Under the pieces are notes generated by a model, which was given only the letters and a program-made list of their open reading frames with translations, was not told where the DNA came from and searched no databases. DNA of 53,132 nt from Candidatus Thorarchaeota archaeon (lineage in GTDB: Archaea > Asgardarchaeota > Thorarchaeia > Thorarchaeales > Thorarchaeaceae): positions 1 to 53,132 of the forward strand of contig PRDI01000086.1 in NCBI GenBank assembly GCA_003345595.1, read 5' to 3'. The position numbers were made by a program, and so were the translations under genes. Below are positions 37,695 through 49,307 of this stretch, piece after piece. The first letter of the stretch is position 1, and every line of letters begins with the position of its first letter.

Positions 37695-39705
37695 CAACAG
37701 CGACGCCTCGCTTGAAGGCCTTCATCTCCGACGCGTCTAGGACTGCCTTTCCGACTCCTAGCAGCTGTCCACTGTTGTCCATGACAAGAGCTTCATCGCC
37801 TGCCTTCAGTTTCGGGCTGGCAGAGTGGACGAATCTCGTCATCGCAGACTTGCCCTGTTTCACGAACTCCACGGCGTCGTCATCGACGATGACTGTGTGG
37901 TCGCTGCCTGCGCCCGCTCTGAGAAGTGCCAGTCCTCCCTCATAGGTTGGTGTCAGGAGACCGGTCATTGGCACCAATGTGAAGATCACCTTTCCCTCCC
38001 TCATGATATGCCGTATCTTACCCGTTGCCTTGGAGATGCTCGTTTCGAGATGCTCCAGCCCAAACAATGTCGCGTCCTTTACTCCCCACTGATATGCTAA
38101 GATGGCCGCAATCATCCTGGCCGTCCAGGAGGGGGCAGAATGTTGTTGAGGCGGCAGCAGGTTCAGTACCTCTGCCACACCAGAAACCCTCGTCACCTTG
38201 TTGCGGCTGGACACAAACGAAATGATCTTGTCGGTTGGGCTGTCTCTCGAAAGCCATACGCACTCTTCAAACGATAGGGTGGACACGAAGCGTTGGACAC
38301 GTTCCTGAGCAATATTGATGTCTGAGCCATCTAGGGTGCTGGGGAACAGGCATTGCTGTGCTGGAAAGACATGCTCCAGTTCCCACGGGACTGCACCAAT
38401 AGGAGTGACGTAGACGAGAAGGACTTCCTCCGGGCCCCTGACTTTGACCTGGTCCTCAATCAATGCACACGTATCAGAGAACGGTCTGTCGCCCTGATGC
38501 GGCACCAGCAAAAGCATCGTTGTCTTGCGGTATGGGTATGTCTCTATGATTCTGTTTTGGAAAGCCTTCAGGAGTGGGTGTCTGGATGTTTCGGTACCTG
38601 TATAGAATATAGAGTTCGAACCTGCGCTTGGCACTGATGAGTCAACATCGCCGATCAACTCTAGAAAGACCAGTAGAGCTTCATACAAGCTGGGATGGCT
38701 TCTTGCCCGGATAGCGGCCAGTTCAAGAAGCCTGCCCTCTGAGATTGCCTGTCGGACTCTCTTCATCTCAGCCGCCGTGACGTAGAGATTGTGTTTAGTC
38801 AGTAGTAGCTCGCGACTGGCAGGGTCGAGTGACTTGATTCCTTCAACGGTTGTGCTGCTACATACTGGACACTCACAGGGCAACTCTCTCAGCCTGTCGA
38901 GCTGGACTGTGCCCGTCGGAAACAGCATCCTTCCAGACTCGGCGAATTTGGCGTAAGATGCAGAGTCGAAGAGATCACATCCCAAGAGAGCTGCCTGTGC
39001 AAAGAACATAGGGTGTCCGCAGCCGAAGAGATGCACGGGTCGGTCTGGAGGCAGATGCTTCTTGGCTGATAGAGTGGCTCTCACTATGTCTGAGTATCGA
39101 TACTGCTCCATGAGCGGCACGACGCCACCAATGGGATGGATGTCGAAGTCGAGAGGCGCGAGGTCCATCGCAGCGCGTGCTCGGAGGTCAGGGTATATGC
39201 CGCCCTGTACAGTCCCGGCCAGGAGCATATTTCCTTTCTCACCCACGGACCTCTTGGCCCTGTCGAGAGAGATGGCGACATCTCGTTCGACTGTTGCCTT
39301 CGCGACATAGGGGTCGGAGAAGGTGTCGAGAATCGTGCCTATGTCTGATCCAATGTCCCGCTGAAATCTCACGATCTCGATTGGATCTATTTCCTCATCT
39401 GGAAGGCTGTGGAAGTACATCTGGTACGTACCAGAGTCGGTCATGATAGGACCACTGAAGTCAAGCAGGCTATGCACACCTTGAGAAAGAGCCGTTTCCC
39501 TGAACCGCTCTGTCGACTTGATGATGTAGGAGTTGGTTATGACCATCTGGAATCCGAACTCGGCCAACATCTGTTTCGGGCTGACTTCGGACTTCGCGGG
39601 ATGAACGACAGGCATCAAGAGGGGCGTCGTTACACTCCCGTGGCTCGTTTCCAGCCGACCAAGCCTTGCCAGGCCGTCCTTTGCGCGCAGTTCGAATTGT
39701 GTCAT
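37672..39705 (-). CDS. tgtA: Archaeosine tRNA-guanine(15) transglycosylase with C-terminal PUA domain
   Basis: MTDSGTYQ, PIGGVVPLMEQY, HLFGCGHP, DLFDSASY, CECPVC and a PUA-like C-terminus. Confidence 0.93.
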   Translation of the reverse strand: MTQFELRAKDGLARLGRLETSHGSVTTPLLMPVVHPAKSEVSPKQMLAEFGFQMVITNSYIIKSTERFRETALSQGVHSLLDFSGPIMTDSGTYQMYFHSLPDEEIDPIEIVRFQRDIGSDIGTILDTFSDPYVAKATVERDVAISLDRAKRSVGEKGNMLLAGTVQGGIYPDLRARAAMDLAPLDFDIHPIGGVVPLMEQYRYSDIVRATLSAKKHLPPDRPVHLFGCGHPMFFAQAALLGCDLFDSASYAKFAESGRMLFPTGTVQLDRLRELPCECPVCSSTTVEGIKSLDPASRELLLTKHNLYVTAAEMKRVRQAISEGRLLELAAIRARSHPSLYEALLVFLELIGDVDSSVPSAGSNSIFYTGTETSRHPLLKAFQNRIIETYPYRKTTMLLLVPHQGDRPFSDTCALIEDQVKVRGPEEVLLVYVTPIGAVPWELEHVFPAQQCLFPSTLDGSDINIAQERVQRFVSTLSFEECVWLSRDSPTDKIISFVSSRNKVTRVSGVAEVLNLLPPQQHSAPSWTARMIAAILAYQWGVKDATLFGLEHLETSISKATGKIRHIMREGKVIFTLVPMTGLLTPTYEGGLALLRAGAGSDHTVIVDDDAVEFVKQGKSAMTRFVHSASPKLKAGDEALVMDNSGQLLGVGKAVLDASEMKAFKRGVAVVMRHTRH

Positions 39706-39815
39706 TCGCAGTCCCTCAGGTTGTCACGGAGTTCTTTCGGCACCGGCTGGCGCGAGGTGCGCAGGAACAGGGAACAATCAATCGGTTTAAGACCGTATGC
39801 TTCAACCTGCCCGTG

Positions 39816-41138
39816 ATGACTTCTCCTACAGCATTGCTGGTCCAGCATCGCAGTACTGGCGAGCCCGATTTGATGGCCGAGTTCAAGGCGCTGGCTTGGA
39901 CTGCTGAGTACAAAGTACTAGGAGAGTTCAATATTGTTGGTCCCATGTCCGCAAGGTTTGGCATCAGAAGCGGAAAGGTCGAAGAGATCAAGACATGGAT
40001 TGATATCAATAAGCCGGATGTCGTGATCTACTCCCCACGACTAAGGTCCAGCCAGATGTTCAGGTTGATGGAGGAGTGGAAGACAGAGGTTAGAGACCGT
40101 ACTCAGCTTATACTTGAGATATTCGACAAACACGCCCGCACCGTGCAGGCAAAGTTACAGATAGAGCAGGCAAGGCTGAGCTATGAGATACCTTTCGTAC
40201 GGCATCAGCTCAGGACACGAATGCAGAAAGAACACACAGGTGCGAAACCCGTTGGAGAGCAGACCGGTGCAGGTGAAGACCTCCTGAATCTCAGAATCAT
40301 GGAGCTCAGACACCGTGTCGCGATGATTGACGACAAGCTCGACAAGATCTCAGAATCACAGAGCATGAAACGTAAGAAACGAATCGATGCGGGTTTCTCA
40401 GAAGTCGCACTCGCAGGATACACAAACGCCGGCAAGAGCACACTGCATCATGCTCTCACAGGGTCTGACGTTGAGGTGGCTGACCAACTCTTCACGACAT
40501 TGTCTACCAAATCAACCGAGCTAACCATGGTCGGAAGACGGGTAGTCCTGACTGACTCAGTGGGTTTCATAAGTGACCTTCCAACGTCGCTTCTTCGTGC
40601 CTTCAACACCACGCTGATGGAGATTGCAGAGTCTGACGTAATCATACTTGTTGTCGATGGTTCTAACTCGCTACAAGAGGTCAAGAGGAAGGTCGAGGTG
40701 TGCATGGATACATTCAGCCAGATAGGCATCAACAGTGTGCCCATTGTGACGGCCCTGAACAAGATTGACCTCCTTAGTGCGGCCGAGGTCCAAGCGAGGG
40801 TTTCCATGTTGAGGAATCTTGGTGCCAGAGTGGTGCCGGTGTCCGCTAGAGACCGGCTCAACCTCACGGATTTGGTCGAGGTCGTCGAGGGGCTCCTCCC
40901 GGGGCTCTCAAGATACTCCATCACGTTGCCATATGGGGACTCGACCATGTCTATGCTGTCTGGGATACACGAGGCTGGACATGTTGAGAGCGAGGTCTAT
41001 GGAGGGGACGGGGTGGAAGTGGAGGCAACTCTGAGTCTGGGTGCTGCACAGAAGCTGTTCAAGATGCTCCCCAGAGGGTCACTGAGGCGACTCGAGTCTG
41101 CATCACCGGATGCTGATGGGTCTGGCAGGACGAGCTAG
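39816..41138 (+). CDS. hflX: GTPase HflX
   Basis: DRTQLILEIF, GYTNAGKST, LFTTL, DSVGFI, NKID. ATG at 39816 is about 25 nt after TTTAAG. Confidence 0.93.
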   Translation: MTSPTALLVQHRSTGEPDLMAEFKALAWTAEYKVLGEFNIVGPMSARFGIRSGKVEEIKTWIDINKPDVVIYSPRLRSSQMFRLMEEWKTEVRDRTQLILEIFDKHARTVQAKLQIEQARLSYEIPFVRHQLRTRMQKEHTGAKPVGEQTGAGEDLLNLRIMELRHRVAMIDDKLDKISESQSMKRKKRIDAGFSEVALAGYTNAGKSTLHHALTGSDVEVADQLFTTLSTKSTELTMVGRRVVLTDSVGFISDLPTSLLRAFNTTLMEIAESDVIILVVDGSNSLQEVKRKVEVCMDTFSQIGINSVPIVTALNKIDLLSAAEVQARVSMLRNLGARVVPVSARDRLNLTDLVEVVEGLLPGLSRYSITLPYGDSTMSMLSGIHEAGHVESEVYGGDGVEVEATLSLGAAQKLFKMLPRGSLRRLESASPDADGSGRTS

Positions 41139-41210: not shown

Positions 41211-41867
41211 ATGATCGCCATGGAGCTGAAGTCGCCAGAAGAGATCCTCAAGATGCTAGAGGGATACAGGAAGATAGTCTTGTTCGGCGACTCCGGGTGC
41301 GCGCAGATGTGTGATGTGGGCGGTATCCTCCAGCTTGAGGATATGGAGGACTTCCTTCGGCAGAACGGAAAGGAAGTGCTAGGCAGGATCTTCGTTGAGG
41401 GGGGAATCTGTGACACCAACAATATCCGACAGGAGCTGATAAAGAACCAGGAGATGCTCGAGAGAGCAGATGCGTTTCTGATACAGGCCTGTGGTGTCGC
41501 CACTCAAACGCTCACGGAGCTCATGCCTGAGAAGGAGTCGTTTCCAGCTGCCAACTCCAAGTTCCTTGGTTCAATGCCTGAGAGATTCGTTCATGAAGAG
41601 CGCTGTATCATGTGCGGAGATTGCATCCTTGATTTGACTGGAGGAATATGCCCCATCGCTCGGTGCGCCAAGGGCATCCTGAACGGACCGTGTGGAGGGT
41701 CAATGGACGGCAAGTGTGAGAGAGACCCTGATACGGACTGCGTGTGGCAGTTGATATATGACAGACTGAAGGCCCTAGGGAAGCTCGACAACCTCCGCTC
41801 CATCTGGAAAGTCAAGGACTGGAGTCTGGCGAGAGGTCCACGCGAGATCATCAAGCAAGAAACCTAG
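41211..41867 (+). CDS. metV: MetV-type Fe-S/Zn subunit of methylene-tetrahydrofolate reductase (MTHFR_C domain)
   Basis: CAQMC.VGG, ACGVATQ, CIMCGDC...GGICPIARCAKGILNGPCGG...CERDPDTDCVW; immediately precedes metF. Confidence 0.88.
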   Translation: MIAMELKSPEEILKMLEGYRKIVLFGDSGCAQMCDVGGILQLEDMEDFLRQNGKEVLGRIFVEGGICDTNNIRQELIKNQEMLERADAFLIQACGVATQTLTELMPEKESFPAANSKFLGSMPERFVHEERCIMCGDCILDLTGGICPIARCAKGILNGPCGGSMDGKCERDPDTDCVWQLIYDRLKALGKLDNLRSIWKVKDWSLARGPREIIKQET

Positions 41868-41925
41868 ATTGTGAACGACCAAAGGAGATATGTGGCCCTG
41901 CTGACGAGCGACATCCGAGGTCAGT

Positions 41926-42870
41926 TTGAAACACAGTCAAGGTTTCCCTGAAACCGCGCTCAAGCGGATGCTCGAGAGTGGTCGTTTCACAGTCACCGGC
42001 GAAGTAGGTCCTCCGCATGGAGCAGACCATAGTCTCGTCCTTGATCGGACGAATCTTGTGAAAGACTATTGCGATGCAATCAACATCACGGACAACGTCC
42101 GGGGAATCCCAACAATGAGCAGCATGGTCTGCGCCCGATTTGTGATTCAGGCAGGTGCTGAGCCCGTAATGCAGATGTCCGCGAGGGACAGGAACAGAAT
42201 CCTATTCGAGAGCGAACTCTATGGGGCTTATGCTCTTGGTGTACGGAACGTGCTGTTCATCACAGGTGACCACACGATCTTAGGGTCACATCCTCAGGCG
42301 AAAATGGTCTACGACCTTGACTCCATCCAAGCATTGCAGCTTGCCAGTCATCTCATGACCGGGCAGGATTTGGCTGGCGATGAGCTTGAAGGAGTCCCGG
42401 CATTCTATCTGGGCGCGACTCTCAATCCGAATGCTGACCCGATGGAGCTACAAGTCTGGCGTGTTGAGAAGAAACGCGATGCTGGGGCACAGTTCTTCCA
42501 AACTCAGGCCATCTACGACACGAGCAGGCTAGAGCAGTTCATGGAACAAATCGAGCCGTTTGGTGTCAAGGTACTTGCCGGACTGATACCTCTCAAAGGA
42601 CCCAAGATGGCCACATTCATGAACGAACGAATCCCAGGTATCAAGATTCCAAAGAGCTTCATAGAACGGCTGGAACAGGCTGGCGACGGCCTGAAGGGTG
42701 ACGAGAAGAGAGAGGCTGTTCGCAGCGAAGGACTCAAGATAGCTGCTGAAACAATCAAGAAAGTCAGGGGCATCCGCGGAATCAGCGGCATCCACATCAT
42801 GGCAATAGGCTGGGAAGAGAGCATCCCTGAGCTCGTGAGAGCCGCGGGGCTGTACCCGCGACCGAAATGA
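41926..42870 (+). CDS. metF: Methylenetetrahydrofolate reductase, flavoprotein subunit
   Basis: TGEVGPP, NITDN, RDRNR, ITGDH, AGAQFFQTQAIYD, GIHIM. Confidence 0.93.
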   Translation: MKHSQGFPETALKRMLESGRFTVTGEVGPPHGADHSLVLDRTNLVKDYCDAINITDNVRGIPTMSSMVCARFVIQAGAEPVMQMSARDRNRILFESELYGAYALGVRNVLFITGDHTILGSHPQAKMVYDLDSIQALQLASHLMTGQDLAGDELEGVPAFYLGATLNPNADPMELQVWRVEKKRDAGAQFFQTQAIYDTSRLEQFMEQIEPFGVKVLAGLIPLKGPKMATFMNERIPGIKIPKSFIERLEQAGDGLKGDEKREAVRSEGLKIAAETIKKVRGIRGISGIHIMAIGWEESIPELVRAAGLYPRPK

Positions 42871-42882
42871 GGTTGAGGCATT

Positions 42883-43800
42883 ATGTTTGTGTTCAAGAAG
42901 GAGCAACAAGCGTTTGATTTCGGCGGCGTGACAATCGGTGGTCAGCCAGGGCAGAACCCAACTGTGCTCATAGGCGGTCTATTCTTTCAGACTCAGCCAG
43001 TCGTGAAGAACGCAAAGGAGGGCACCTTCGATGAGCAGATGGCAAAGGAGTGGATTGATACTGCGAACATGATGGTGGACAAGACAGGTCACCCACTCAT
43101 CATCCAAGCTTTCGGCCGGACTCCCGAGGCTATGGAACGGCATCTGACCTGGCTCGCAGATAACTTCGAAGGTCCCTTCATGTTCGAGTCGACAAACGCG
43201 GATGCAAGGAAACGCGCCATACAGTTCTGTGAACAGAGTGGGCTTGCAGGCAGGGCTATCTACAACTCAATCAACCTCTCTATGAAGGAAGAAGAAAAGA
43301 CGCTTCTTCGGAGCAGCCCTATCAGAATGGCGGTTGTCCTTGGATGGTCTCCGAGAGCAACAGGTCTGGCCGATCGCATGGAAACGATCAAGGCCATGAT
43401 TTCAGAGGCGAAGTCCATTGGCATGGAGAAGATTGTAGTAGACCCAGCTACAATGCCTGTGGGTGCTGGCTATGGCTTGGAGTACAGGACTATGTTAGCC
43501 ATAAAATCGGAGCTAGGTCTGCCGACCTGCCTCGGTCCTCACAATGCTCCATCCGCTTGGAAGTTCATCAAGCAGCCCGGATTAGATGATGAGGCCACCC
43601 AAATCTCAGCCGTGGTTGCATCGACTATCGCGGCGCAGCTGTTTGCCACAGACTGCATCATGTACGGGTCGATGGCTCGATCGAAGCAGGTCTTCACTGC
43701 AGTATCACTCATAGCAAATGCAATGGCAGCCGCAGTAGCTGAGGCTCAACAGGCAATTGGGGTTTCCACGCCCATATTCGAACCGAAGTCGTTTGAGTAG
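42883..43800 (+). CDS. mtrH: MtrH-family methyl-pterin:corrinoid methyltransferase (divergent copy 1)
   Basis: MFVFKKEQ..GGQPGQNPTVLIG, IYNSIN, GLPTCLGPHNAPSAW, IMYG. Confidence 0.85.
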   Translation: MFVFKKEQQAFDFGGVTIGGQPGQNPTVLIGGLFFQTQPVVKNAKEGTFDEQMAKEWIDTANMMVDKTGHPLIIQAFGRTPEAMERHLTWLADNFEGPFMFESTNADARKRAIQFCEQSGLAGRAIYNSINLSMKEEEKTLLRSSPIRMAVVLGWSPRATGLADRMETIKAMISEAKSIGMEKIVVDPATMPVGAGYGLEYRTMLAIKSELGLPTCLGPHNAPSAWKFIKQPGLDDEATQISAVVASTIAAQLFATDCIMYGSMARSKQVFTAVSLIANAMAAAVAEAQQAIGVSTPIFEPKSFE

Positions 43801-43811
43801 GTGGTGTGACG

Positions 43812-44504
43812 ATGGGCATGAATGACAATAGGAACTGGCCGCCCATACCTGGTGACTTTGAGGTAAAGAACCCCAGTTCGTGTGTTGCGATATGCACTCT
43901 TGGGAAAAAGATAGAGGTTTCTACCGACTACGCAATAATAGGCACATGCAAGACTGAGAACATAGGCATAGAGCGCATGATAGTGAACGTCATTTCGAAT
44001 TCCTGTATCAGGTTTTTCATACTCGCCGGCCCCGAGATTCCGGGGCACAAGACAGGCGCCTCGGTGAAATGCCTCCATGAGAGCGGCATTGACCCGAGCA
44101 CCAGAAGGATCCTCGGGGCTGAGGGGGCAATACCATATGTTGAGAATGTACCAATCGAGGCAGTCGAGAGGTTTCGAAGTCAGGTTCAGCTGATCAGCAT
44201 GGTTGATGTAACAGATCCGGGCGAGATAGCGCGTGTGGCTGATGAAGTGGTTTTGAGGAACCCGGGACCATACCCTGCTGATCCCATCTGGGTCGAGTTC
44301 AAGGCTAGACCCGGCAAGGCGAGTTCAAGGAATATGGGTGCGGCCATTGCGCTGTTGCCAGAGTTTGGCATTTCGTTCGACCCCGCAAGTTCACTGGTGT
44401 CGAGGATGGACCTGGTCGCATGGGTCACCACTCATCCAACAACTGTTGGAGTTGTCATGAAGAGCGACGAAACGGGAACCGCACTTGTAGGACAGGAGTT
44501 GTAA
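43812..44504 (+). CDS. mtrA: MtrA-family corrinoid protein, soluble (no TM anchor)
   Basis: WPPIPGDF, VAICTLG, KTENIGIE, ISN..IRF, cobalt-ligand His in GHKTG, GAIPYVEN. Confidence 0.9.
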   Translation: MGMNDNRNWPPIPGDFEVKNPSSCVAICTLGKKIEVSTDYAIIGTCKTENIGIERMIVNVISNSCIRFFILAGPEIPGHKTGASVKCLHESGIDPSTRRILGAEGAIPYVENVPIEAVERFRSQVQLISMVDVTDPGEIARVADEVVLRNPGPYPADPIWVEFKARPGKASSRNMGAAIALLPEFGISFDPASSLVSRMDLVAWVTTHPTTVGVVMKSDETGTALVGQEL

Positions 44505-44507
44505 GCT

Positions 44508-45443
44508 TTGTTCGCATTCGAGAAAGAGCAAGTGATTCATAACATCGGCGGCGTCAGAATCGGTGGAACACCCGGCGAGATTCCTACGGTGTTGGCGGGC
44601 ACGATATTCTACACAGGACATGACATAGTGCAGGACGCGAAGAAAGGCCTCTTTGACAGGAAAGCCGCTGAGGCTCTGATTAAGACTCAAGATGAGATGG
44701 CAGATCTTACAGGGAACCCCGCTCTTGTTCAAGTGTTCTCAGAGTCTGAAGAGGCCGTGCGTCGGTACATCGATTTCGTGACCGACATCACGGACGCGCC
44801 ATTTCTGATTGATTCAACTGTGCCTGATGTCAGGACTGCCGGCCTGAAGCACGCCGAAGAGTCTGGTTTACTCGACAAGGCGATCTATAACTCAATCAAC
44901 ATCTCTGCCACAGAGGCAGAGCTTAACGCCCTTAGAGAGATCAAGCATGAATGCGCCATCATTCTGGCTTTCAACCCCCACGACTCGTCCATTGCAGGCA
45001 AGAGGGCAGTGCTTGAACAGGGTGTGCCCGGGTTTGACAAGGGTCTCTTGAAGCTGAGTGAAGAGCTCGGAGTCACCAAGCCCCTAATTGATACTGCAAC
45101 CACTGCGATGGGTGCGGGTGCGGGCACCGCTGCAGCATTCACCTTTGTGGCAAAGGCCGTCTACGGACTGCCAACGGGATCAGGGGTTCACAATGCACCA
45201 AGTTCTTGGTCATGGCTCCGCAAGTACAAGAAAGTCAATCCAGATGCCTACCGTACTTGTGATACTGCGTCCTGTCTTATTGTCCAGATGATGGGTGCAG
45301 ATTTTGTCCTCTACGGGCCAATCAGTAATGCTAGAACCGTCTTCCCAGTAGCCGCGATGGCAGATGTGTTCGCAGCGGAGTCCGCCAGTGTTGAGTCTGG
45401 CATCGAGCCGTCTGACAGCCATCCCTTCCGTAGGCTCTTGTGA
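44508..45443 (+). CDS. mtrH: MtrH-family methyltransferase (canonical-like copy 2)
   Basis: MFAFEKEQ, PTVLAGTIFYTGH, PFLIDST, IYNSIN, GLPTGSGVHNAPSSW, GADFVLYGPI. Confidence 0.9.
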   Translation: MFAFEKEQVIHNIGGVRIGGTPGEIPTVLAGTIFYTGHDIVQDAKKGLFDRKAAEALIKTQDEMADLTGNPALVQVFSESEEAVRRYIDFVTDITDAPFLIDSTVPDVRTAGLKHAEESGLLDKAIYNSINISATEAELNALREIKHECAIILAFNPHDSSIAGKRAVLEQGVPGFDKGLLKLSEELGVTKPLIDTATTAMGAGAGTAAAFTFVAKAVYGLPTGSGVHNAPSSWSWLRKYKKVNPDAYRTCDTASCLIVQMMGADFVLYGPISNARTVFPVAAMADVFAAESASVESGIEPSDSHPFRRLL

Positions 45444-45458
45444 GAAGGTGATAGGACG

Positions 45459-46895
45459 ATGTCCACGAAGGCCAGAGTGATCAGGCCGAGGAGCATAGGG
45501 GTAAGTTCACTCAGGACCGGTCCGTTCTACACTGTGGCTTCTGTGGAGCTGGGCAATACAACAACCAAATGCATTATTGCGTCCACGAACCTAAAGACTG
45601 CAGAGATATTCGAGATTGCGAAGGAAGTCAGATTCACGCGTGACGTGAGGCCTCCTGAGAAGGGAGAACAAGTCTTCGGGAGGACTGTCACAGGCGTTGA
45701 GCTGACTCGTCAGTCGGTTTCGGAGCTGGTTTCAGCAATACTGACATCTGTACTGTCAAAGGCTCGGCTAAGTCTTGATAGCGACCTGCACTTTGTCGTG
45801 CGGTCTACAGGTGTGACAGCAGGGTTTGCACAGCCCTCCGAGGTCGGAGAGATGGTGAGGGCACTGGCTGACGGCTGTCTTGCTGCTGGAGTTCCACCGA
45901 GCAAGATGGCTGCATCGATTGCCCCAGAGAATCTGCCTGCGGACATACGACAGTTCAGCTGGCTCCGGAAGGTCTACTTCGACGGAGCAGTGGCAAGCTG
46001 TCTCCCGCCATCTAACACCGAGGTCGTGGCCAATGAGATGGAAGGGGAGCTAGTCACAGCTGGTATGAAAGGCGCTGTCAAAGGGACTGGCATAGACTTC
46101 AGAAACCCTGCTATGGTCCTGGACTTTGGCACTACGCTTGCTGGAAGGATAAATGATGGCAGCTATCCTTATGCCAAGACCATTGGTTCCTTCGCTGGAC
46201 TTGCCGGGGCTATACCAGATGCTCTTGCCAGAGGTGGAGTAGAGGCTATCGGACCAGCAGGCTGCGTTCTTGACCTGACGACAAATCCCAGTCGACGTCG
46301 TATCCAAGTAGATCCGGCATGGATAGAGCAGGTGCAGAAGCAGATCCGTGTTGAGGTCGTGCCACACTCTGCGAAACGATTCGGGACTGTCCCTGTGAAC
46401 CCCGACGCTGCCGAGGAATCCGGAGTGCTGCTCATAGGTGTGGATGCAGGCTCGAACGGCTCAGCGATCAGAGAGATAGAACATGTTGGAGCAAGAATCG
46501 TTGAAGCAGGTGGCACCGAGTTGATGATGGGGGTAATAGACCAGGTGCAGTTCCACACTATGCAGAGGATTCTTCGTGTGGCCGAGGAGCATGGGCTCAT
46601 TCTGGAAGAGACATCGCTTGGCTTGACTGGCAGGGCAATCATCACAGGAGCAAAGCCAAGCATGATCCTGAATGGGCTGCGGACAAGAGATGGATCCCTT
46701 TGGAGCGGCTCTCATCAGATCGTGTTCGTCGAGGACGGCCTAGCAATGGGCGCGGCTGTGGCAGCTAGATGCATGAACTCGATGGGAACGAGGGAGAACC
46801 CGATGGGCGGACGCAAGGGCGATTCATGTATCATGGGAGCACGCATGAAGCTGCAGAAGGAAAAGCGGGGAGGTCACCCGATTCACAGGTCATAG
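45459..46895 (+). CDS. Methanogenesis marker protein 14 family (DUF2114; ASKHA-type ATPase-like)
   Basis: VASVELGNTTTKCI, FVVRSTGVTAGF, VANEMEGELVTAG, DFGTTLAGR, DGLAMGAAVAARCMNSMGT..NPMGG. Confidence 0.82.
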   Translation: MSTKARVIRPRSIGVSSLRTGPFYTVASVELGNTTTKCIIASTNLKTAEIFEIAKEVRFTRDVRPPEKGEQVFGRTVTGVELTRQSVSELVSAILTSVLSKARLSLDSDLHFVVRSTGVTAGFAQPSEVGEMVRALADGCLAAGVPPSKMAASIAPENLPADIRQFSWLRKVYFDGAVASCLPPSNTEVVANEMEGELVTAGMKGAVKGTGIDFRNPAMVLDFGTTLAGRINDGSYPYAKTIGSFAGLAGAIPDALARGGVEAIGPAGCVLDLTTNPSRRRIQVDPAWIEQVQKQIRVEVVPHSAKRFGTVPVNPDAAEESGVLLIGVDAGSNGSAIREIEHVGARIVEAGGTELMMGVIDQVQFHTMQRILRVAEEHGLILEETSLGLTGRAIITGAKPSMILNGLRTRDGSLWSGSHQIVFVEDGLAMGAAVAARCMNSMGTRENPMGGRKGDSCIMGARMKLQKEKRGGHPIHRS

Positions 46896-46965
46896 ACCAT
46901 GTGAGCCGCTCCTTTTCACTGCGGATATTCATCGTGCCGCCTGAGGTTGTTCGGGTGGCTTTATC

Positions 46966-47778
46966 TTGTATCCAAGCTGTGCGCGTCCGAGGTCGGGCCA
47001 ATTGCTAGTACTACCAGTAAAGACACGAACGATAACCCCGAAAGATGACTTCCTAGATGTTGTGCTTGAGGCACTCTCGCACACTGGATACGGCATTCAA
47101 GACAACGACATCTTGGTGGCTGCGGAGACCCCACTTGCAACCACTGAAGGACGGATAGTGAAACTCTCTGAAGTGAAGCCGTCTGCCCAAGCCAAGAAGC
47201 TGGCGACCAAGTATGACATGATTCCTGAGGTCGTCGAGCTTGTGATTCGTGAGTCCGATGAGATACTTGGAGGAATACAGCATGTCCTCCTAACAATCAA
47301 GAACAATACACTCATGGCCAACGCAGGAGTGGACAAGTCTAACGTTCCACCGGGCCACGCGTGTCTCCTCCCAGCAGACCCAAGGGCGAGTGCGGTCCGG
47401 CTCAGAGATCAAGTAAAGCAGCGCCTAGGCAAGACAATAGGCACTATGGTGATAGACAGCCGCACGCAACCACTTCGACTGGGCAACGTGGGGCTTGCTC
47501 TGGGCGTCGCAGGCTTCGTACCAGTTGGTGACGACCGTGGCAAGAAAGACCTCTTTGGCAATGTACTGAAGATCAAGCGCCGTGGTCTAGCAGACAACTT
47601 GGCTTCGGCTTGCGAGCTTGTCATCGGTGAGGCTGATGAGTCTGTGCCAGCGGCTCTCGTACGCGAAGCACCGGTTGAGTTTGTCGACAAGTCTTTCGAC
47701 TCGGCCGAGATGTGGATCAGTCCTCGAGAGTGCATGTATATGGCCATCTTCGAAGAGTGGCGTCGAGGCAAGAAGTGA
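46966..47778 (+). CDS. cofE: Coenzyme F420:L-glutamate ligase (CofE) family protein
   Basis: ANAGVDKSN, IDSRTQPLRLG, ADNLASACELVIGEADESVP. Start uncertain. Confidence 0.85.
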   Translation: MYPSCARPRSGQLLVLPVKTRTITPKDDFLDVVLEALSHTGYGIQDNDILVAAETPLATTEGRIVKLSEVKPSAQAKKLATKYDMIPEVVELVIRESDEILGGIQHVLLTIKNNTLMANAGVDKSNVPPGHACLLPADPRASAVRLRDQVKQRLGKTIGTMVIDSRTQPLRLGNVGLALGVAGFVPVGDDRGKKDLFGNVLKIKRRGLADNLASACELVIGEADESVPAALVREAPVEFVDKSFDSAEMWISPRECMYMAIFEEWRRGKK

Positions 47779-47948: not shown

Positions 47949-49307
47949 TTGACGAGCAATAAGGTCCTTCTTGATGTTGCATCCGCCGGAGCATCTGGCG
48001 ATATGTTTCTGTCTGCTTTGATTGACTTGCTTGGTCAGGATGATGCCCTTCTCCCGGTGGCAGCGAGTCTGCTAATATACGATCCAACGCTCCGTGTTCG
48101 TGTTGTATCTCAGTATGCTGGCGATCGCTCTGGGAAGAAGCTCGAGATAAGCCGGGACAAGGGCGTACAGCTCACCCCGAAGTCGATAATGGAAGTCATG
48201 ACAGCAGTTTCCGAGGAGCTAGAGCTATCTGAAGGAGCAAAGGCTTTCGCCAAGAAAGCTCTGAATGAGATTCTGGAGGCGGAGTCAAGGGCACACGAGA
48301 TTCCCATCGACAAGCTGCAGTTGGGCGAAACCGGTTCTGTTGATACAGTCTTGGATCTGGTGGGGACTGCATACCTGCTCGAGAAGGCAGGCCTGCTGGG
48401 CAAGTACAGGTTCGTAGGCACGCGAGTCGCTGTGGGCACCGGCACAGTCGCGACCGAGCACGGTGATATGGAGGTCCCTGTCCCAGCTGTGGCGGAGATT
48501 CTTGTGGCACATGATGTGCCCTTTCAGACGGGTTCCGCAACCACTGAGGTTCTTACTCCCACTGGTGCGGCCATTCTAGTCTGCCTTGCCGAAGAGTATG
48601 TTGAGTCATCTGAGGGGTTCATTGCAAAAAGCCAAGGCGTGGGCTTTGGCAAACGTGACCTGGGCGGCACACCTAACCTGATGCGGATAATAATAGGCCA
48701 GGAGGCACCGCCAGCGGAGAAGCCTTCGAAGAAGGCTGCAGAGAAGCCATCTGAGAGAGCACCTGCAAAGAAGGCCACTCCTGTTCCGACAACGACACCA
48801 GTTATGGCTGCGGAAGAGCGGACAGGGGTTCTTGAGGCTTGGAGCGACGAGGACATAGTCGTCATCGAGACCACGGTTGAAGACGCAGACGGCGAGATAG
48901 TTGGTACTCTCTTTGACACTCTTCTGTCAGAAGGCCTCGCCTATGATGTTGTCATGATCCCTGCATTCTGCAAGAAGAACAGACCATGCTTCATCATCAA
49001 GGTGTTGGCTGCCAAGGCCGGGCTCAAGAGTGTCGCCGAGATATTGATGCGTCACTTGGGGACTCTAGGCGTTCGCTACACCACATGGCAGCGATTGACT
49101 GCTGCTCGTGAAACTGTGGCGTGTCGTCTAGAGATTGACGGCACGGAGTACATGGTCCGCGTCAGGATATCCCGTGGTATGGACGGCAGTATAATCAACA
49201 TAAAGCCTGACTCAGATGATGTGGTCAGGATCTCTCAGGCGACAGGTATTCCTGTGCGGGAGCTCAAGCCGCGAATCGCACTCCAGTCCTATGCAATAAC
49301 GGAGTGA
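47949..49307 (+). CDS. larC: LarC family (nickel-insertion) protein, divergent
   Basis: GASGDMFLSAL, HG..PVPA, TPTGAAIL, GFG.R...PNLMR, ETTVED, KKNRP, TLGVR. Confidence 0.85.
   Translation: MTSNKVLLDVASAGASGDMFLSALIDLLGQDDALLPVAASLLIYDPTLRVRVVSQYAGDRSGKKLEISRDKGVQLTPKSIMEVMTAVSEELELSEGAKAFAKKALNEILEAESRAHEIPIDKLQLGETGSVDTVLDLVGTAYLLEKAGLLGKYRFVGTRVAVGTGTVATEHGDMEVPVPAVAEILVAHDVPFQTGSATTEVLTPTGAAILVCLAEEYVESSEGFIAKSQGVGFGKRDLGGTPNLMRIIIGQEAPPAEKPSKKAAEKPSERAPAKKATPVPTTTPVMAAEERTGVLEAWSDEDIVVIETTVEDADGEIVGTLFDTLLSEGLAYDVVMIPAFCKKNRPCFIIKVLAAKAGLKSVAEILMRHLGTLGVRYTTWQRLTAARETVACRLEIDGTEYMVRVRISRGMDGSIINIKPDSDDVVRISQATGIPVRELKPRIALQSYAITE

What the first reader, a model, noticed from the sequence alone, without database searches (positions are those of the whole stretch)
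41211..47778. Soluble 'mini-Mtr' C1 operon: MetVF + two MtrH + anchorless MtrA + marker 14 + CofE, a candidate folate/methanopterin methyl shuttle
Seen: seven co-oriented, closely spaced genes (metV, metF, mtrH1, mtrA, mtrH2, marker 14, cofE) with no mtrB-G and no mcr in the window. Established: MtrH transfers methyl from a methyl-pterin to the MtrA cobamide, MtrE/CDE perform CoM transfer and Na+ pumping, and MetVF is the acetogen-type methylene-THF reductase. Inference: with two different pterin-binding barrels and one mobile corrinoid, the simplest chemistry is CH3-pterin A -> Co -> pterin B. That would be a transmethylase joining the H4folate pool (served by MetVF) to the H4MPT pool in a non-methanogen, with no ion pumping. 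I know of no biochemical description of such a module.
Basis: partly seen in the sequence, partly recalled or inferred. Interest (0 to 1): 0.88.

Follow-up and report, generated by a model that had tools for sequence, protein, structure and literature searches.

The report
Membrane-free two-headed Mtr methyl relay
A Thorarchaeota (Asgard) genome that cannot make methane keeps a soluble, rebuilt piece of the methanogens' vitamin-B12 methyl-transfer pump next to a folate-type reductase; the gene set is real, family-wide and partly published, but what receives the methyl group is still unknown, and this genus has lost most methanopterin chemistry.

Summary
MtrA has the cobalt-binding histidine and no membrane helix. 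The MAG (83% complete) has no McrA or MtrE.

The functional unit is MtrH1-MtrA-MtrH2-marker 14. It is invariant in 19 related loci and moves as one block; MetF is next to it in 17 of 19. CofE is only a syntenic neighbour.

Both MtrH copies fall inside the methanogen MtrH clade. MtrH1 keeps the pterin-binding Asn/Asp/His set, but about a dozen conserved sites, several in the pocket, are switched and fixed in 140 orthologues. Marker 14 is an ASKHA-fold ATPase, plausibly the corrinoid activase.

A pterin-cobalt-pterin relay remains the simplest chemistry (about 0.35). This genus, however, lacks Ftr (a clean syntenic deletion), Mer and CODH/ACS, and keeps only Mch, so a folate-to-methanopterin bridge has no visible purpose here.

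New here: all 86 genomes of the family lack every known homocysteine methyltransferase family yet have SAH hydrolase. A MetH-like split methionine synthase is therefore a live alternative.

The core (MtrAH plus DUF2114 in Thorarchaeia) was published by Adam et al. 2022. This scan has already reported the same operon in at least eight other Thorarchaeia genomes.

The parts
41211..41867 (+). MetV, small subunit of the MetVF-type methylene-tetrahydropterin reductase. The ORF is open from TTG 41184; ATG 41211 is the likely start.
   Evidence: PF12225 DUF5981 119 bits over residues 120-214. Found next to MetF in 11 of 19 related loci.
41926..42870 (+). MetF, methylene-tetrahydropterin reductase; the only MTHFR-family gene in the MAG.
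   Evidence: PF02219 121 bits. Single copy in the genome. Directly upstream of MtrH1 in 17 of 19 loci. 12-nt gap to MtrH1.
42883..43800 (+). MtrH1, a diverged paralogue of canonical MtrH. It is a pterin-type TIM-barrel methyltransferase with a remodelled pocket.
   Evidence: PF02007 231 bits; TIGR01114 230 bits, below its 271 cut-off. 34% identical to MtrH2. Forms its own clade on a long stem (0.75) inside the methanogen MtrH set. Q75, N129, D196, H229 and N230 are kept. T32G, D103E, Y87H, F156W, N157S, D160A and G225C are fixed in 140 orthologues.
43806..44504 (+). MtrA, the corrinoid carrier. It has no membrane anchor; the C-terminal ~70 residues form a conserved soluble tail.
   Evidence: PF04208 179 bits. 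His ligand aligned to solved MtrA. No TM helix. The tail has invariant P185 and E186 and is predicted as short beta strands at low confidence, pLDDT 44-65. Full-length orthologues occur in 78 of 85 family genomes.
44508..45443 (+). MtrH2, canonical-type MtrH (methyl-pterin:cob(I)amide methyltransferase).
   Evidence: TIGR01114 408 bits, above its cut-off. 280 bits to the M. mazei MtrH chain 9qtp_o. Keeps T32, D103 and the R239/K242/K243 patch of methanogen MtrH.
45459..46895 (+). Methanogenesis marker 14 (DUF2114, 'm26'): an ASKHA-fold ATPase and candidate ATP-dependent activase or chaperone of the MtrA cobamide.
   Evidence: PF09887 593 bits, TIGR03285 581 bits. AF2 model pLDDT 78, pTM 0.82. 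ASKHA fold, Z 15-18. Invariant ELGNTT, DFGTT and GxTGR nucleotide motifs. Always follows MtrH2 (18 of the 19 long loci; the 19th contig ends before that position). Published as tied to Mtr by distribution and synteny.
46966..47778 (+). CofE (F420-0:gamma-glutamyl ligase): a conserved neighbour, not part of the functional unit.
   Evidence: TIGR01916 188 bits, above its cut-off. 70-nt gap. Separated from or inverted relative to the Mtr block in G317 and G324.

Best explanation
MtrH1, MtrA, MtrH2 and marker 14 form a soluble corrinoid methyl-transfer machine. It derives from the cytoplasmic head of the methanogen Mtr pump and pumps no ions.

MtrH2 does the canonical half-reaction: CH3-pterin + Co(I)-MtrA <-> pterin + CH3-Co(III)-MtrA. 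MtrH1 is an old, strongly conserved paralogue. It still has the pterin-binding catalytic residues but a re-tooled pocket, and it does the same half-reaction with a second pterin species. The net reaction is therefore CH3-pterin A + pterin B <-> pterin A + CH3-pterin B. One of the two pterins is the product or substrate of the adjacent MetVF.

MtrA probably docks on an MtrH1/MtrH2 heterodimer through its new C-terminal tail and swings between the two opposite-facing active sites. Marker 14 uses ATP to keep or return the cobamide to the active Co(I) state.

Shown: gene content, conservation, clade membership, retained and switched residues, and the ASKHA fold. Inferred: docking, the identity of the pterins, the direction of transfer, and the activase role.

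The general description (soluble Mtr-derived corrinoid methyltransferase system) I hold at about 0.85. The specific pterin-to-pterin net reaction I hold at 0.35.
For: - The four genes are invariant and adjacent in all 19 long loci from 16 genera; a short contig from a second family carries the first three. In G324 the block is inverted as a unit.
- Gaps are 3-15 nt.
- MtrH1 orthologues are 65-72% identical across the family, more conserved than MtrA at 49-62%.
- Both paralogues sit in a 99%-supported set with Methanosarcina, Methanosphaera and Methanoregula MtrH. The duplication predates the split of the two families.
- Q75, N129, D196, H229 and N230, the pterin site defined in PMC12774963, are kept in both. 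MtrH1 has fixed T32G, D103E and other switches.
- In the solved Mtr complex MtrH is a dimer whose active sites face opposite ways.
- MetF is adjacent in 17 of 19 loci.
- The same genome has a classic MT1-corrinoid protein-RACo-MtrH3 system. In the operon, MtrA takes the corrinoid-protein position and marker 14 the RACo position.
- Marker 14 is an ASKHA ATPase.
Against: - This genus lacks Ftr, Mer and CODH/ACS, and RFAP synthase was not found. Only Mch speaks for a methanopterin pool. A second pterin and a use for it are therefore not evident here.
- Across the family the module (78/85) is more constant than Ftr (61/86), Mer (41/86) or ACS (41/86, in 5 of 16 genera).
- No sequence feature assigns H4F or H4MPT to either MtrH. 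The basic exit patch lost in MtrH1 is also present in folate-specific MtgA.
- No binding or activity data exist.
Confidence: 0.35

Rival explanations
1. Methyl supply to a non-pterin acceptor, most attractively homocysteine. MetVF makes the CH3-pterin and an MtrH loads MtrA. The methyl then goes to a thiol, through MtrH1 or through an unlinked methyltransferase. Marker 14 reactivates the cobamide. This would be a split analogue of MetH: two barrels, a B12 module and a reactivation module.
For: - None of 86 family genomes has Meth_synt_2 (MetE/core-MetE) or S-methyl_trans (MetH/BHMT). SAH hydrolase, which makes homocysteine, is present in 5 of 5 tested.
- Most other large Asgard families have one or the other: f8 22/27, f13 9/9, f11 17/19, f22 90/118, f6 4/4, f16 6/6.
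- metF is the classical partner gene of methionine synthase.
- The module persists in genera without Ftr, Mer or ACS.
- The corrinoid methyl donor for archaeal methionine synthesis is said to be unknown (PMC9012536).
Against: - MtrH1 keeps all pterin-site residues and shows no convincing thiol-activating zinc motif. Only C116, C216, H87 and H220 are conserved, and they are spread along the sequence.
- Family f14 lacks both synthase families and also lacks MtrA, so auxotrophy is a sufficient explanation for the gap.
- f16 has both core-MetE and MtrAH fusions.
- Related genomes are not independent samples.
Confidence: 0.2
2. An entry port for methyl groups. MtrA is methylated by substrate-specific methyltransferases or other corrinoid systems. 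The MtrH proteins pass the methyl to a pterin for oxidation through MetVF (in reverse), FolD and Fhs, or for assimilation. [quoted passage not shown]
For: - Literature proposal for MtrAH in non-methanogens (PMC9635834; PMC9723677).
- The genome has methyltransferase systems: the C96 cluster and an MttB/corrinoid/MtaA cluster noted earlier in this scan (not tested here).
- Fhs and FolD are present, which would give ATP from formyl-THF.
Against: - No substrate-specific MT1 gene is linked to the operon in any of 19 loci.
- The known systems bring their own corrinoid protein and RACo activase, so MtrA would be redundant.
- It does not explain why two different MtrH copies are conserved.
Confidence: 0.2
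3. One pterin only. MtrH1 and MtrH2 form an obligate heterodimer that replaces the methanogen MtrH homodimer plus the MtrB stalk. MtrH1 is mainly a scaffold or docking subunit. The complex simply equilibrates CH3-pterin with CH3-Co-MtrA for some downstream user.
For: - Canonical MtrH is a homodimer in which only the membrane-proximal copy is thought to serve MtrA.
- The MtrB-contact residues changed in a complementary way: D5K in MtrH1 with R211 kept, and R211 lost in MtrH2.
- MtrA gained a conserved tail with an invariant Glu that could take over the docking role of MtrB.
Against: A pure scaffold would not be expected to keep Q75, N129, D196, H229 and N230 invariant, nor to fix a specific alternative pocket (D103E, T32G, N157S, D160A) in 140 orthologues.
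Confidence: 0.15
4. A decaying, functionless remnant of ancestral methanogenesis.
For: The module is described as a 'remnant' in the literature. Other H4MPT genes are being lost in this genus.
Against: - All four genes are intact in 78 of 85 genomes.
- MtrH1 is 65-72% identical and marker 14 56-92% identical across the family, with many invariant columns.
- Operon-like spacing is kept.
Confidence: 0.02

Closest known systems
Thorarchaeia 'canonical MtrAH' plus marker m26 (DUF2114), reported as methanogenesis remnants (Adam et al. 2022, Sci Adv, PMC9635834)
   Same: It is the same gene set in the same lineage: MtrA and MtrH without MtrB-G, and DUF2114 tied to them by distribution, phylogeny and synteny.
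   Different: In the text and supplement I searched, the paper does not mention the second diverged MtrH, the loss of the MtrA anchor and its new tail, the MetVF linkage, the fold of m26 or any mechanism. It only suggests 'a methyltransferase in their mixotrophic lifestyle'.
Methanogen Mtr complex MtrA-H (M. marburgensis 8Q3V; M. mazei 9QTP/9QTS, PMC12774963)
   Same: MtrA corrinoid domain with the His ligand (152 bits to 8q3v_A). MtrH2 scores 280 bits to 9qtp_o. The pterin-site residues are the same.
   Different: There is no MtrA transmembrane helix, no MtrE in the genome, no membrane stalk and hence no Na+ pumping. There are two non-identical MtrH copies instead of a homodimer. The CoM-side chemistry (MtrCDE) is missing.
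Three- or four-component corrinoid methyltransferase systems (MT1, corrinoid protein, MT2, RACo/RamA activase), such as MtgABC of Desulfitobacterium hafniense (MtgA, PDB 6SJ8) and the cluster on contig C96 of this genome
   Same: The logic is the same: one corrinoid carrier, two methyltransferases and one ATP-using activator. MtgA is an MtrH-family MT2 (136-188 bits to MtrH1 and MtrH2). The C96 cluster has a B12-binding protein, RACo and MtrH3.
   Different: Here the carrier is MtrA-type rather than MtaC/MtbC-type. Both methyltransferases are pterin-type. The putative activator is DUF2114, without the ferredoxin domain of RACo.
Cobalamin-dependent methionine synthase MetH
   Same: The modular plan is the same: two TIM barrels, one cobalamin module and one reactivation module, genetically linked to metF in many organisms (established knowledge of MetH).
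   Different: There is no homocysteine-binding zinc barrel (PF02574 in 0 of 86 genomes). The parts are separate proteins of different families. Reactivation would depend on ATP rather than AdoMet.
Two-gene MtrAH and MtrAH fusions of Methanomassiliicoccales and other Asgard lineages (PMC11291895, PMC9723677)
   Same: They are also soluble MtrA/MtrH without MtrB-G in organisms lacking a full Mtr.
   Different: Those have one MtrH, often fused to MtrA (about 510 aa), and are only 33-45% identical to this MtrA. In the one two-gene MtrA-MtrH locus I examined, no DUF2114, second MtrH or MetVF lay alongside.

Membership tests
Energy-converting Mtr complex (MtrA-H) | MtrA corrinoid domain with a histidine lower ligand | tested here: met
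   PF04208 179 bits. GH in 'EIPGHKTG' aligns to 'EVQGHITG' of 8q3v_A. G80 and H81 are invariant in 21 orthologues.
Energy-converting Mtr complex (MtrA-H) | C-terminal transmembrane helix of MtrA anchoring it in the MtrABFG stalk | tested here: not met
   The highest Kyte-Doolittle 19-residue mean is 1.42, at residue 58. The C-terminal 70 residues are polar and conserved as a soluble tail.
Energy-converting Mtr complex (MtrA-H) | Membrane subunits MtrB-G, including the Na+/CoM subunit MtrE | tested here: not met
   PF04206 MtrE has no match in the MAG (83% complete) while the controls ring. The other subunits were not searched individually; they are reported absent from Thorarchaeia.
Energy-converting Mtr complex (MtrA-H) | Canonical MtrH | tested here: met
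   MtrH2 scores 408 bits on TIGR01114 (cut-off 271). It lies in a 99%-supported set with methanogen MtrH.
MtrH / pterin-binding methyltransferase family (for MtrH1) | Pterin-site residues D103, N129, D196 and N230, plus T32, Q75 and H229 (M. mazei numbering) | tested here: inconclusive
   N129, D196, N230, Q75 and H229 are kept in 19 of 19 orthologues. D103 is Glu and T32 is Gly in all of them. Family membership is clear (PF02007 231 bits), but it scores below the MtrH equivalog cut-off.
MetVF-type methylene-H4F reductase | MetF (MTHFR barrel) with an adjacent MetV (DUF5981) | tested here: met
   PF02219 121 bits and PF12225 119 bits, 58 nt apart.
MetVF-type methylene-H4F reductase | Specificity for H4folate rather than H4MPT | not testable with these tools
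   Archaeal MetF of this kind has been proposed to act on H4MPT in ANME-1 (PMC9012536). No sequence rule is available.
Reductive activases of corrinoid enzymes (RACo/RamA type) | Fe-S (ferredoxin-like) domain plus an ASKHA ATPase domain of the RACo family | tested here: not met
   Marker 14 matches only PF09887 and no Fer2 or RACo domains. A true RACo exists elsewhere, at C96:5390-7006. Marker 14 shares only the general ASKHA fold.
ASKHA ATPase superfamily (for marker 14) | Two-lobed actin-like fold with phosphate-1, phosphate-2 and adenosine motifs | tested here: met
   VIA Z 15-18 over residues 20-451 to AnmK, CoaX, Kae1, FtsA and HadI-type activators. ELGNTT, DFGTT and GxTGR are invariant.
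Methionine synthases (MetE/core-MetE, MetH/BHMT) | Homocysteine-binding zinc barrel (PF01717 or PF02574) | tested here: not met
   No match in any of 86 family genomes for either family, while the controls ring.

The most novel reading that the evidence does not exclude
The MetVF-MtrH1-MtrA-MtrH2-marker 14 cluster is the missing methionine synthase of Thorarchaeia. It would be a MetH-like enzyme assembled from separate Mtr-derived parts. A methyl-pterin made by MetVF would be passed through the MtrA cobamide to homocysteine, either by the re-tooled MtrH1 or by an unlinked partner. DUF2114 would act as an ATP-driven reactivase. If true, this would also name the long-sought corrinoid methyl donor for archaeal methionine synthesis and give DUF2114 a function in methanogens.
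Probability: 0.15. Interest if true: 0.85.

Novelty: new variant of a known kind. Interest (0 to 1): 0.6.

Why it matters
Three reasons.

1. This is a soluble, four-protein version of the catalytic head of Mtr, the central energy-converting enzyme of methanogenesis. It could be expressed and assayed without membranes. That makes two open questions directly testable: what DUF2114 (marker 14) does for the MtrA cobamide, and whether an MtrH-type barrel can be re-specified for another pterin or another acceptor.

2. Either leading reading would be new biochemistry. I found no paper in the held library that describes a pterin-to-pterin transmethylase or a split methionine synthase built from Mtr parts.

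3. The system is near-universal in Thorarchaeia, including genera that have lost Ftr, Mer and CODH/ACS. Metabolic reconstructions that treat it as a link to the Wood-Ljungdahl pathway probably misread it.

Tried and rejected
- **Complex prediction.** Complex prediction of MtrA with marker 14, each with its own alignment, returned 'no answer' (score 0.08, mark 0.32). This is no evidence either way.
- **Marker 14, sequence and features.** It has no sequence match in the PDB. The Atlas feature search pointed to EutA, the ethanolamine ammonia-lyase reactivase, at 0.83. That is below the level the tool calls reliable, so I keep it only as a lead.
- **Marker 14, fold.** The fold searches could not separate activator-type ASKHA proteins from kinases, Kae1 or FtsA.
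- **Basic patch as a discriminator.** I tested whether the R239/K242/K243 patch separates H4MPT users from folate users. It does not, because folate-specific MtgA is also basic there.
- **Zinc site in MtrH1.** I looked for a thiol-activating zinc site. Only H87, C116, C216 and H220 are conserved. From their place in the sequence they are unlikely to meet, and I had no coordinates to check.
- **RFAP synthase.** TIGR00144 was not found in five genomes. One of them is G313, which has Ftr, Mch and Mer. The search therefore cannot decide whether methanopterin is made.
- **Inserted genes.** The genes inserted between MetV and MetF in three genomes are SBP_bac_5 solute-binding proteins and gave no functional clue.
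- **Phyletic pattern.** I asked whether loss of MetE/MetH tracks presence of MtrA across Asgard families. The pattern is suggestive but broken by f14 (neither) and f16 (both).
- **Unavailable paper.** Liu et al. 2018 (PMC5864231) is not held.

Full report
**Observation**

The + strand between 41184 and 47778 carries seven consecutive ORFs. Pfam and NCBIfam identify them as follows:
- MetV: DUF5981, 119 bits.
- MetF: MTHFR, 121 bits.
- A diverged MtrH: 231 bits on PF02007, below the TIGR01114 equivalog cut-off.
- MtrA: 179 bits.
- A canonical MtrH: 408 bits on TIGR01114, above its cut-off.
- Methanogenesis marker 14 / DUF2114: 593 bits.
- CofE: 188 bits on TIGR01916.

Gaps are 58, 12, 5, 3, 15 and 70 nt. 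MtrA is 232 aa and has no hydrophobic helix (highest 19-residue hydropathy 1.42). Its corrinoid histidine aligns with that of the solved MtrA 8q3v_A. HflX lies upstream and LarC downstream.

The window is contig C86 of a 2.73-Mb, 83%-complete MAG. The MAG has one MtrA, three MtrH, no McrA and no MtrE. Names attached to near-identical database proteins place it in Thorarchaeota.

**What is the unit**

A scan of 400 Asgard genomes with this MtrA found full-length anchorless orthologues (49-86% identity) in 78 of 85 genomes of the window's own family. Elsewhere it found only MtrAH fusions or MtrA-like proteins at 33-45% identity.

I fetched 20 loci from 16 genera and mapped the window's proteins onto them:
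- MtrH1-MtrA-MtrH2-marker 14 is present in that order in all 19 long loci.
- A short contig from a second family (G310) has MtrH1-MtrA-MtrH2.
- In G324 the four-gene block is inverted relative to CofE and LarC and has no MetVF beside it. In G317 a 2.5-kb insert separates marker 14 from CofE.
- MetF is directly upstream of MtrH1 in 17 of 19 loci, and MetV in 11 of 19.
- The flanks (HflX, CofE, LarC and two large genes on the other strand) are conserved as well. Part of the synteny is therefore plain vertical inheritance.

The functional core is the four genes. MetF is a frequent partner and CofE only a neighbour.

**The two MtrH proteins**

MtrH1 and MtrH2 are 34% identical. A third MtrH on contig C96 is 27% and 37% identical to them.

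An exhaustive search of 1.8 billion representative proteins found only one full-length 50%-identity cluster for MtrH1. The next relatives are at most 36% identical.

In a tree of 110 MtrH-family proteins, with clade names taken:
- The MtrH1 clade (support 100) and the MtrH2 clade (support 97) both lie inside a 99%-supported set that contains MtrH of Methanosarcina, Methanosphaera and Methanoregula.
- MtrH1 sits on a long stem (0.75).
- The two G310 copies split the same way, so the duplication is older than the two families.
- MtrH3 belongs to a different clade, together with Bathyarchaeota MtrH-like proteins.

The M. mazei Mtr structure paper names the pterin site as D103, N129, D196 and N230, plus T32, Q75 and H229. 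It also names a basic exit patch (R239, K242, K243) and two MtrB contacts (D5, R211) (PMC12774963). Mapping these sites gives:
- MtrH2 keeps T32/S, Q75, D103, N129, D196, H229, N230 and the basic patch. It has lost R211.
- MtrH1 keeps Q75, N129, D196, H229, N230 and R211. It has D103E and T32G in 19 of 19 orthologues and D5K in 18 of 19, and it has lost K242 and K243.

I compared 140 MtrH1 orthologues with 21 MtrH2 and 12 methanogen MtrH sequences. The fixed MtrH1-specific switches are T32G, Y35F, Y87H, I102F, D103E, A155G, F156W, N157S, D160A, G225C, W237F and P275S.

MtrH1 is 65-72% identical across the family, which is better conserved than MtrA. It is therefore a functional, pterin-type barrel with a consistently re-shaped pocket. 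Which pterin it binds cannot be read from sequence. The basic patch is not a discriminator, because folate-specific MtgA is basic there too.

**MtrA tail and marker 14**

The last ~70 residues of MtrA replace the membrane helix with a conserved polar tail. P185 and E186 are invariant, and W162, F165, P211, G224, T225 and E231 are nearly so. AlphaFold models the corrinoid domain confidently (pLDDT about 90) and the tail as short strands at pLDDT 44-65. That pattern fits a segment that folds against a partner.

In methanogens the MtrH dimer is held by a strand of MtrB through D5 and R211. The complementary changes at these two sites in MtrH1 and MtrH2 make it reasonable that the tail tethers MtrA to an MtrH1/MtrH2 heterodimer. 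This is inference.

Marker 14 has no PDB relative by sequence. A model built on 40 orthologues (pLDDT 78, pTM 0.82) is an ASKHA (actin-like ATPase) fold. It scores Z 15-18 to AnmK, CoaX, Kae1, FtsA and the HadI/BcrAD-type activators. The ELGNTT, DFGTT and GxTGR motifs are invariant.

The same genome has a textbook methyltransferase cluster on C96: an unknown 499-aa protein, a B12-binding corrinoid protein, a RACo-type activase and MtrH3. By position, MtrA stands where the corrinoid protein stands and marker 14 where RACo stands. Adam et al. tie this marker (their m26) to Mtr by distribution, phylogeny and synteny but give it no function. I read it as the ATP-dependent activase or chaperone of the MtrA cobamide. 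This is an inference from fold and context only.

**Which C1 carriers does this organism have**

*Folate side, in this genome:*
- Fhs, FolD and a formiminotransferase-cyclodeaminase are adjacent on C109.
- GcvT sits next to a DHPS-like protein and an MptE-like pterin kinase.
- There is a single MetF.

*Methanopterin side:*
- Mch is present in all four genomes of the genus.
- Ftr is absent from all four.
- No hit reaches the Mer cut-off: the best is about 200 bits against a cut-off of 349.
- CdhC and CdhD are absent.
- RFAP synthase was not found. It was also not found in G313, which has Ftr, Mch and Mer, so that search is not decisive.

The Ftr loss is real. The region around Mch is collinear between this genome (C27) and G313. 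Ftr, a GXGXG (FwdC-like) gene and a small ORF are cleanly missing between Mch and the neighbouring glycosidase.

*Across the family:*
- Ftr is in 61 of 86 genomes. It is absent or nearly so from three genera, two of them with high-quality genomes.
- Mer is in 41 of 86.
- CODH/ACS is in 41 of 86, confined to 5 of 16 genera.
- Fhs is in 80 of 86.

The Mtr-derived module (78 of 85) is thus as constant as the folate branch, and much more constant than any methanopterin-branch enzyme or acetyl-CoA synthase.

The structural half of the idea holds up: two different pterin barrels around one mobile cobamide, with no pump. A pterin-Co-pterin relay is still the simplest net reaction.

The physiological half does not fit this genus. 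CH3-H4MPT would have no maker and no user here, and 11 of 16 genera lack the acetyl-CoA synthase that would consume it. MetVF of this archaeal type has itself been proposed to work on H4MPT in ANME-1 (PMC9012536), so 'MetVF serves the folate pool' is also an assumption. I therefore rate the reading as partly supported and put the specific shuttle at about 0.35.

One conceivable direction would fit the gene losses. Methyl groups loaded on a methanopterin-type carrier would be handed to folate and oxidised through MetVF, FolD and Fhs, with ATP gained at Fhs. This is speculation.

**A new alternative**

None of the 86 family genomes has a Meth_synt_2 (MetE, core-MetE) or S-methyl_trans (MetH, BHMT) domain, while the controls ring. 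SAH hydrolase, which produces homocysteine, is present in all five genomes tested.

Among Asgard genomes at least 80% complete, most large families have one of the two domains:
- f8: 22 of 27 with S-methyl_trans.
- f13: 9 of 9 with S-methyl_trans.
- f11: 17 of 19 with S-methyl_trans.
- f22: 90 of 118 with S-methyl_trans, mostly stand-alone proteins of about 300 aa.
- f6: 4 of 4 with MetE.
- f16: 6 of 6 with MetE.
- f29: 4 of 4 with MetE.

The Thorarchaeia family has 0 of 70 for both.

The operon has the modular plan of MetH: two barrels, a cobamide module and a reactivation module. It also sits next to metF. The corrinoid donor for archaeal methionine synthesis is described as unknown.

Against this reading:
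- MtrH1 keeps its pterin residues and has no convincing zinc site.
- f14 lacks both synthase families and also lacks MtrA. f16 has both MetE and MtrAH fusions.
- Peptide-fermenting Asgard archaea may simply be methionine auxotrophs.

I give a thiol or methionine acceptor about 0.2 overall. I give the specific 'split methionine synthase' version 0.15.

**Comparison with what is known, and novelty**

The closest known thing is the very same gene set: 'canonical MtrAH' plus m26 in Thorarchaeia (Adam et al. 2022). In what I could search, that paper does not describe the second MtrH, the anchor loss and tail, the MetVF link, the ASKHA fold or a mechanism.

The module is not a member of the energy-converting Mtr complex, because the membrane anchor and MtrE tests fail. 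It works like a four-component corrinoid methyltransferase system.

Full-text searches found no paper on DUF2114 function and no description of a pterin-to-pterin transmethylase. I class it as a new variant of a known kind.

This scan has already reported the same operon in at least eight other Thorarchaeia genomes, with the same overall verdict.
- The clean syntenic Ftr deletion.
- The residue-level comparison on 140 orthologues.
- The placement of both paralogues inside the methanogen MtrH clade.
- The family-wide tallies for Ftr, Mer and ACS.
- The missing-methionine-synthase observation.

**Verdict**

The system is real, conserved and expressible in soluble form. Its mechanism is unproven. 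Interest 0.6.

Noticed in passing
G000 contig C96:3103-7917 (locus L059): A classic corrinoid methyltransferase cluster on the minus strand: an unknown 499-aa protein with no Pfam match (candidate substrate-specific MT1), a B12-binding corrinoid protein, a RACo-type activase (Fer2 + RACo domains) and a third MtrH. That MtrH groups with Bathyarchaeota MtrH-like proteins.
   Followed up: partly
G000 contig C27:8053-9879 compared with G313:C2 (locus L067:6652-9356): The own genus has a clean syntenic deletion of Ftr, a GXGXG-motif (FwdC-like) gene and a 165-aa ORF. The adjacent Mch is kept at 57% identity. Ftr is also missing from two other genera of the family.
   Followed up: yes
86 genomes of the window's family: No genome has a MetE/core-MetE or MetH/BHMT-type homocysteine methyltransferase domain, yet SAH hydrolase is present in 5 of 5 tested. 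Either the family is auxotrophic for methionine or it has an unrecognised methionine synthase.
   Followed up: partly
Other Asgard families f8, f13, f11, f22: Their S-methyl_trans hits are mostly stand-alone proteins of about 295-310 aa rather than full-length MetH. Methionine synthesis there may also run through separate pterin and corrinoid partners.
   Followed up: no
L037:10680-12752, L042:10712-15259, L054:10698-14399: In three genomes from different genera, one or two SBP_bac_5 (peptide/nickel-type solute-binding protein) genes are inserted immediately upstream of MetF: between MetV and MetF in two genomes, and between HflX and MetF in G353, where no MetV was detected.
   Followed up: partly
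G000 contig C109:1040-6676 (locus L060): Formiminotransferase-cyclodeaminase, FolD and Fhs are adjacent, next to a RuBisCO large-subunit-like gene. This looks like a folate-based route from histidine breakdown to formate plus ATP.
   Followed up: no
Family-wide tallies: Bona fide Mer is patchy (41 of 86). CODH/ACS is confined to 5 of 16 genera. Several genomes carry both Mer and MetVF next to the Mtr block (G313, G335, G392), so MetF is not simply a Mer substitute in this family.
   Followed up: partly
G313 and four genomes of the own genus: RFAP synthase (TIGR00144), the committed step of methanopterin synthesis, was not found even in a 98%-complete genome that has Ftr, Mch and Mer. Either the enzyme is too diverged for the model or the pterin is made another way.
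   Followed up: no
window 47949-49307 and 39666-41138: LarC (nickel-pincer cofactor insertion; LarC1 and LarC2 domains joined by a long Ala/Pro/Lys-rich linker) lies downstream and HflX GTPase upstream. Both keep their positions around the operon in nearly all of the 19 long loci.
   Followed up: no
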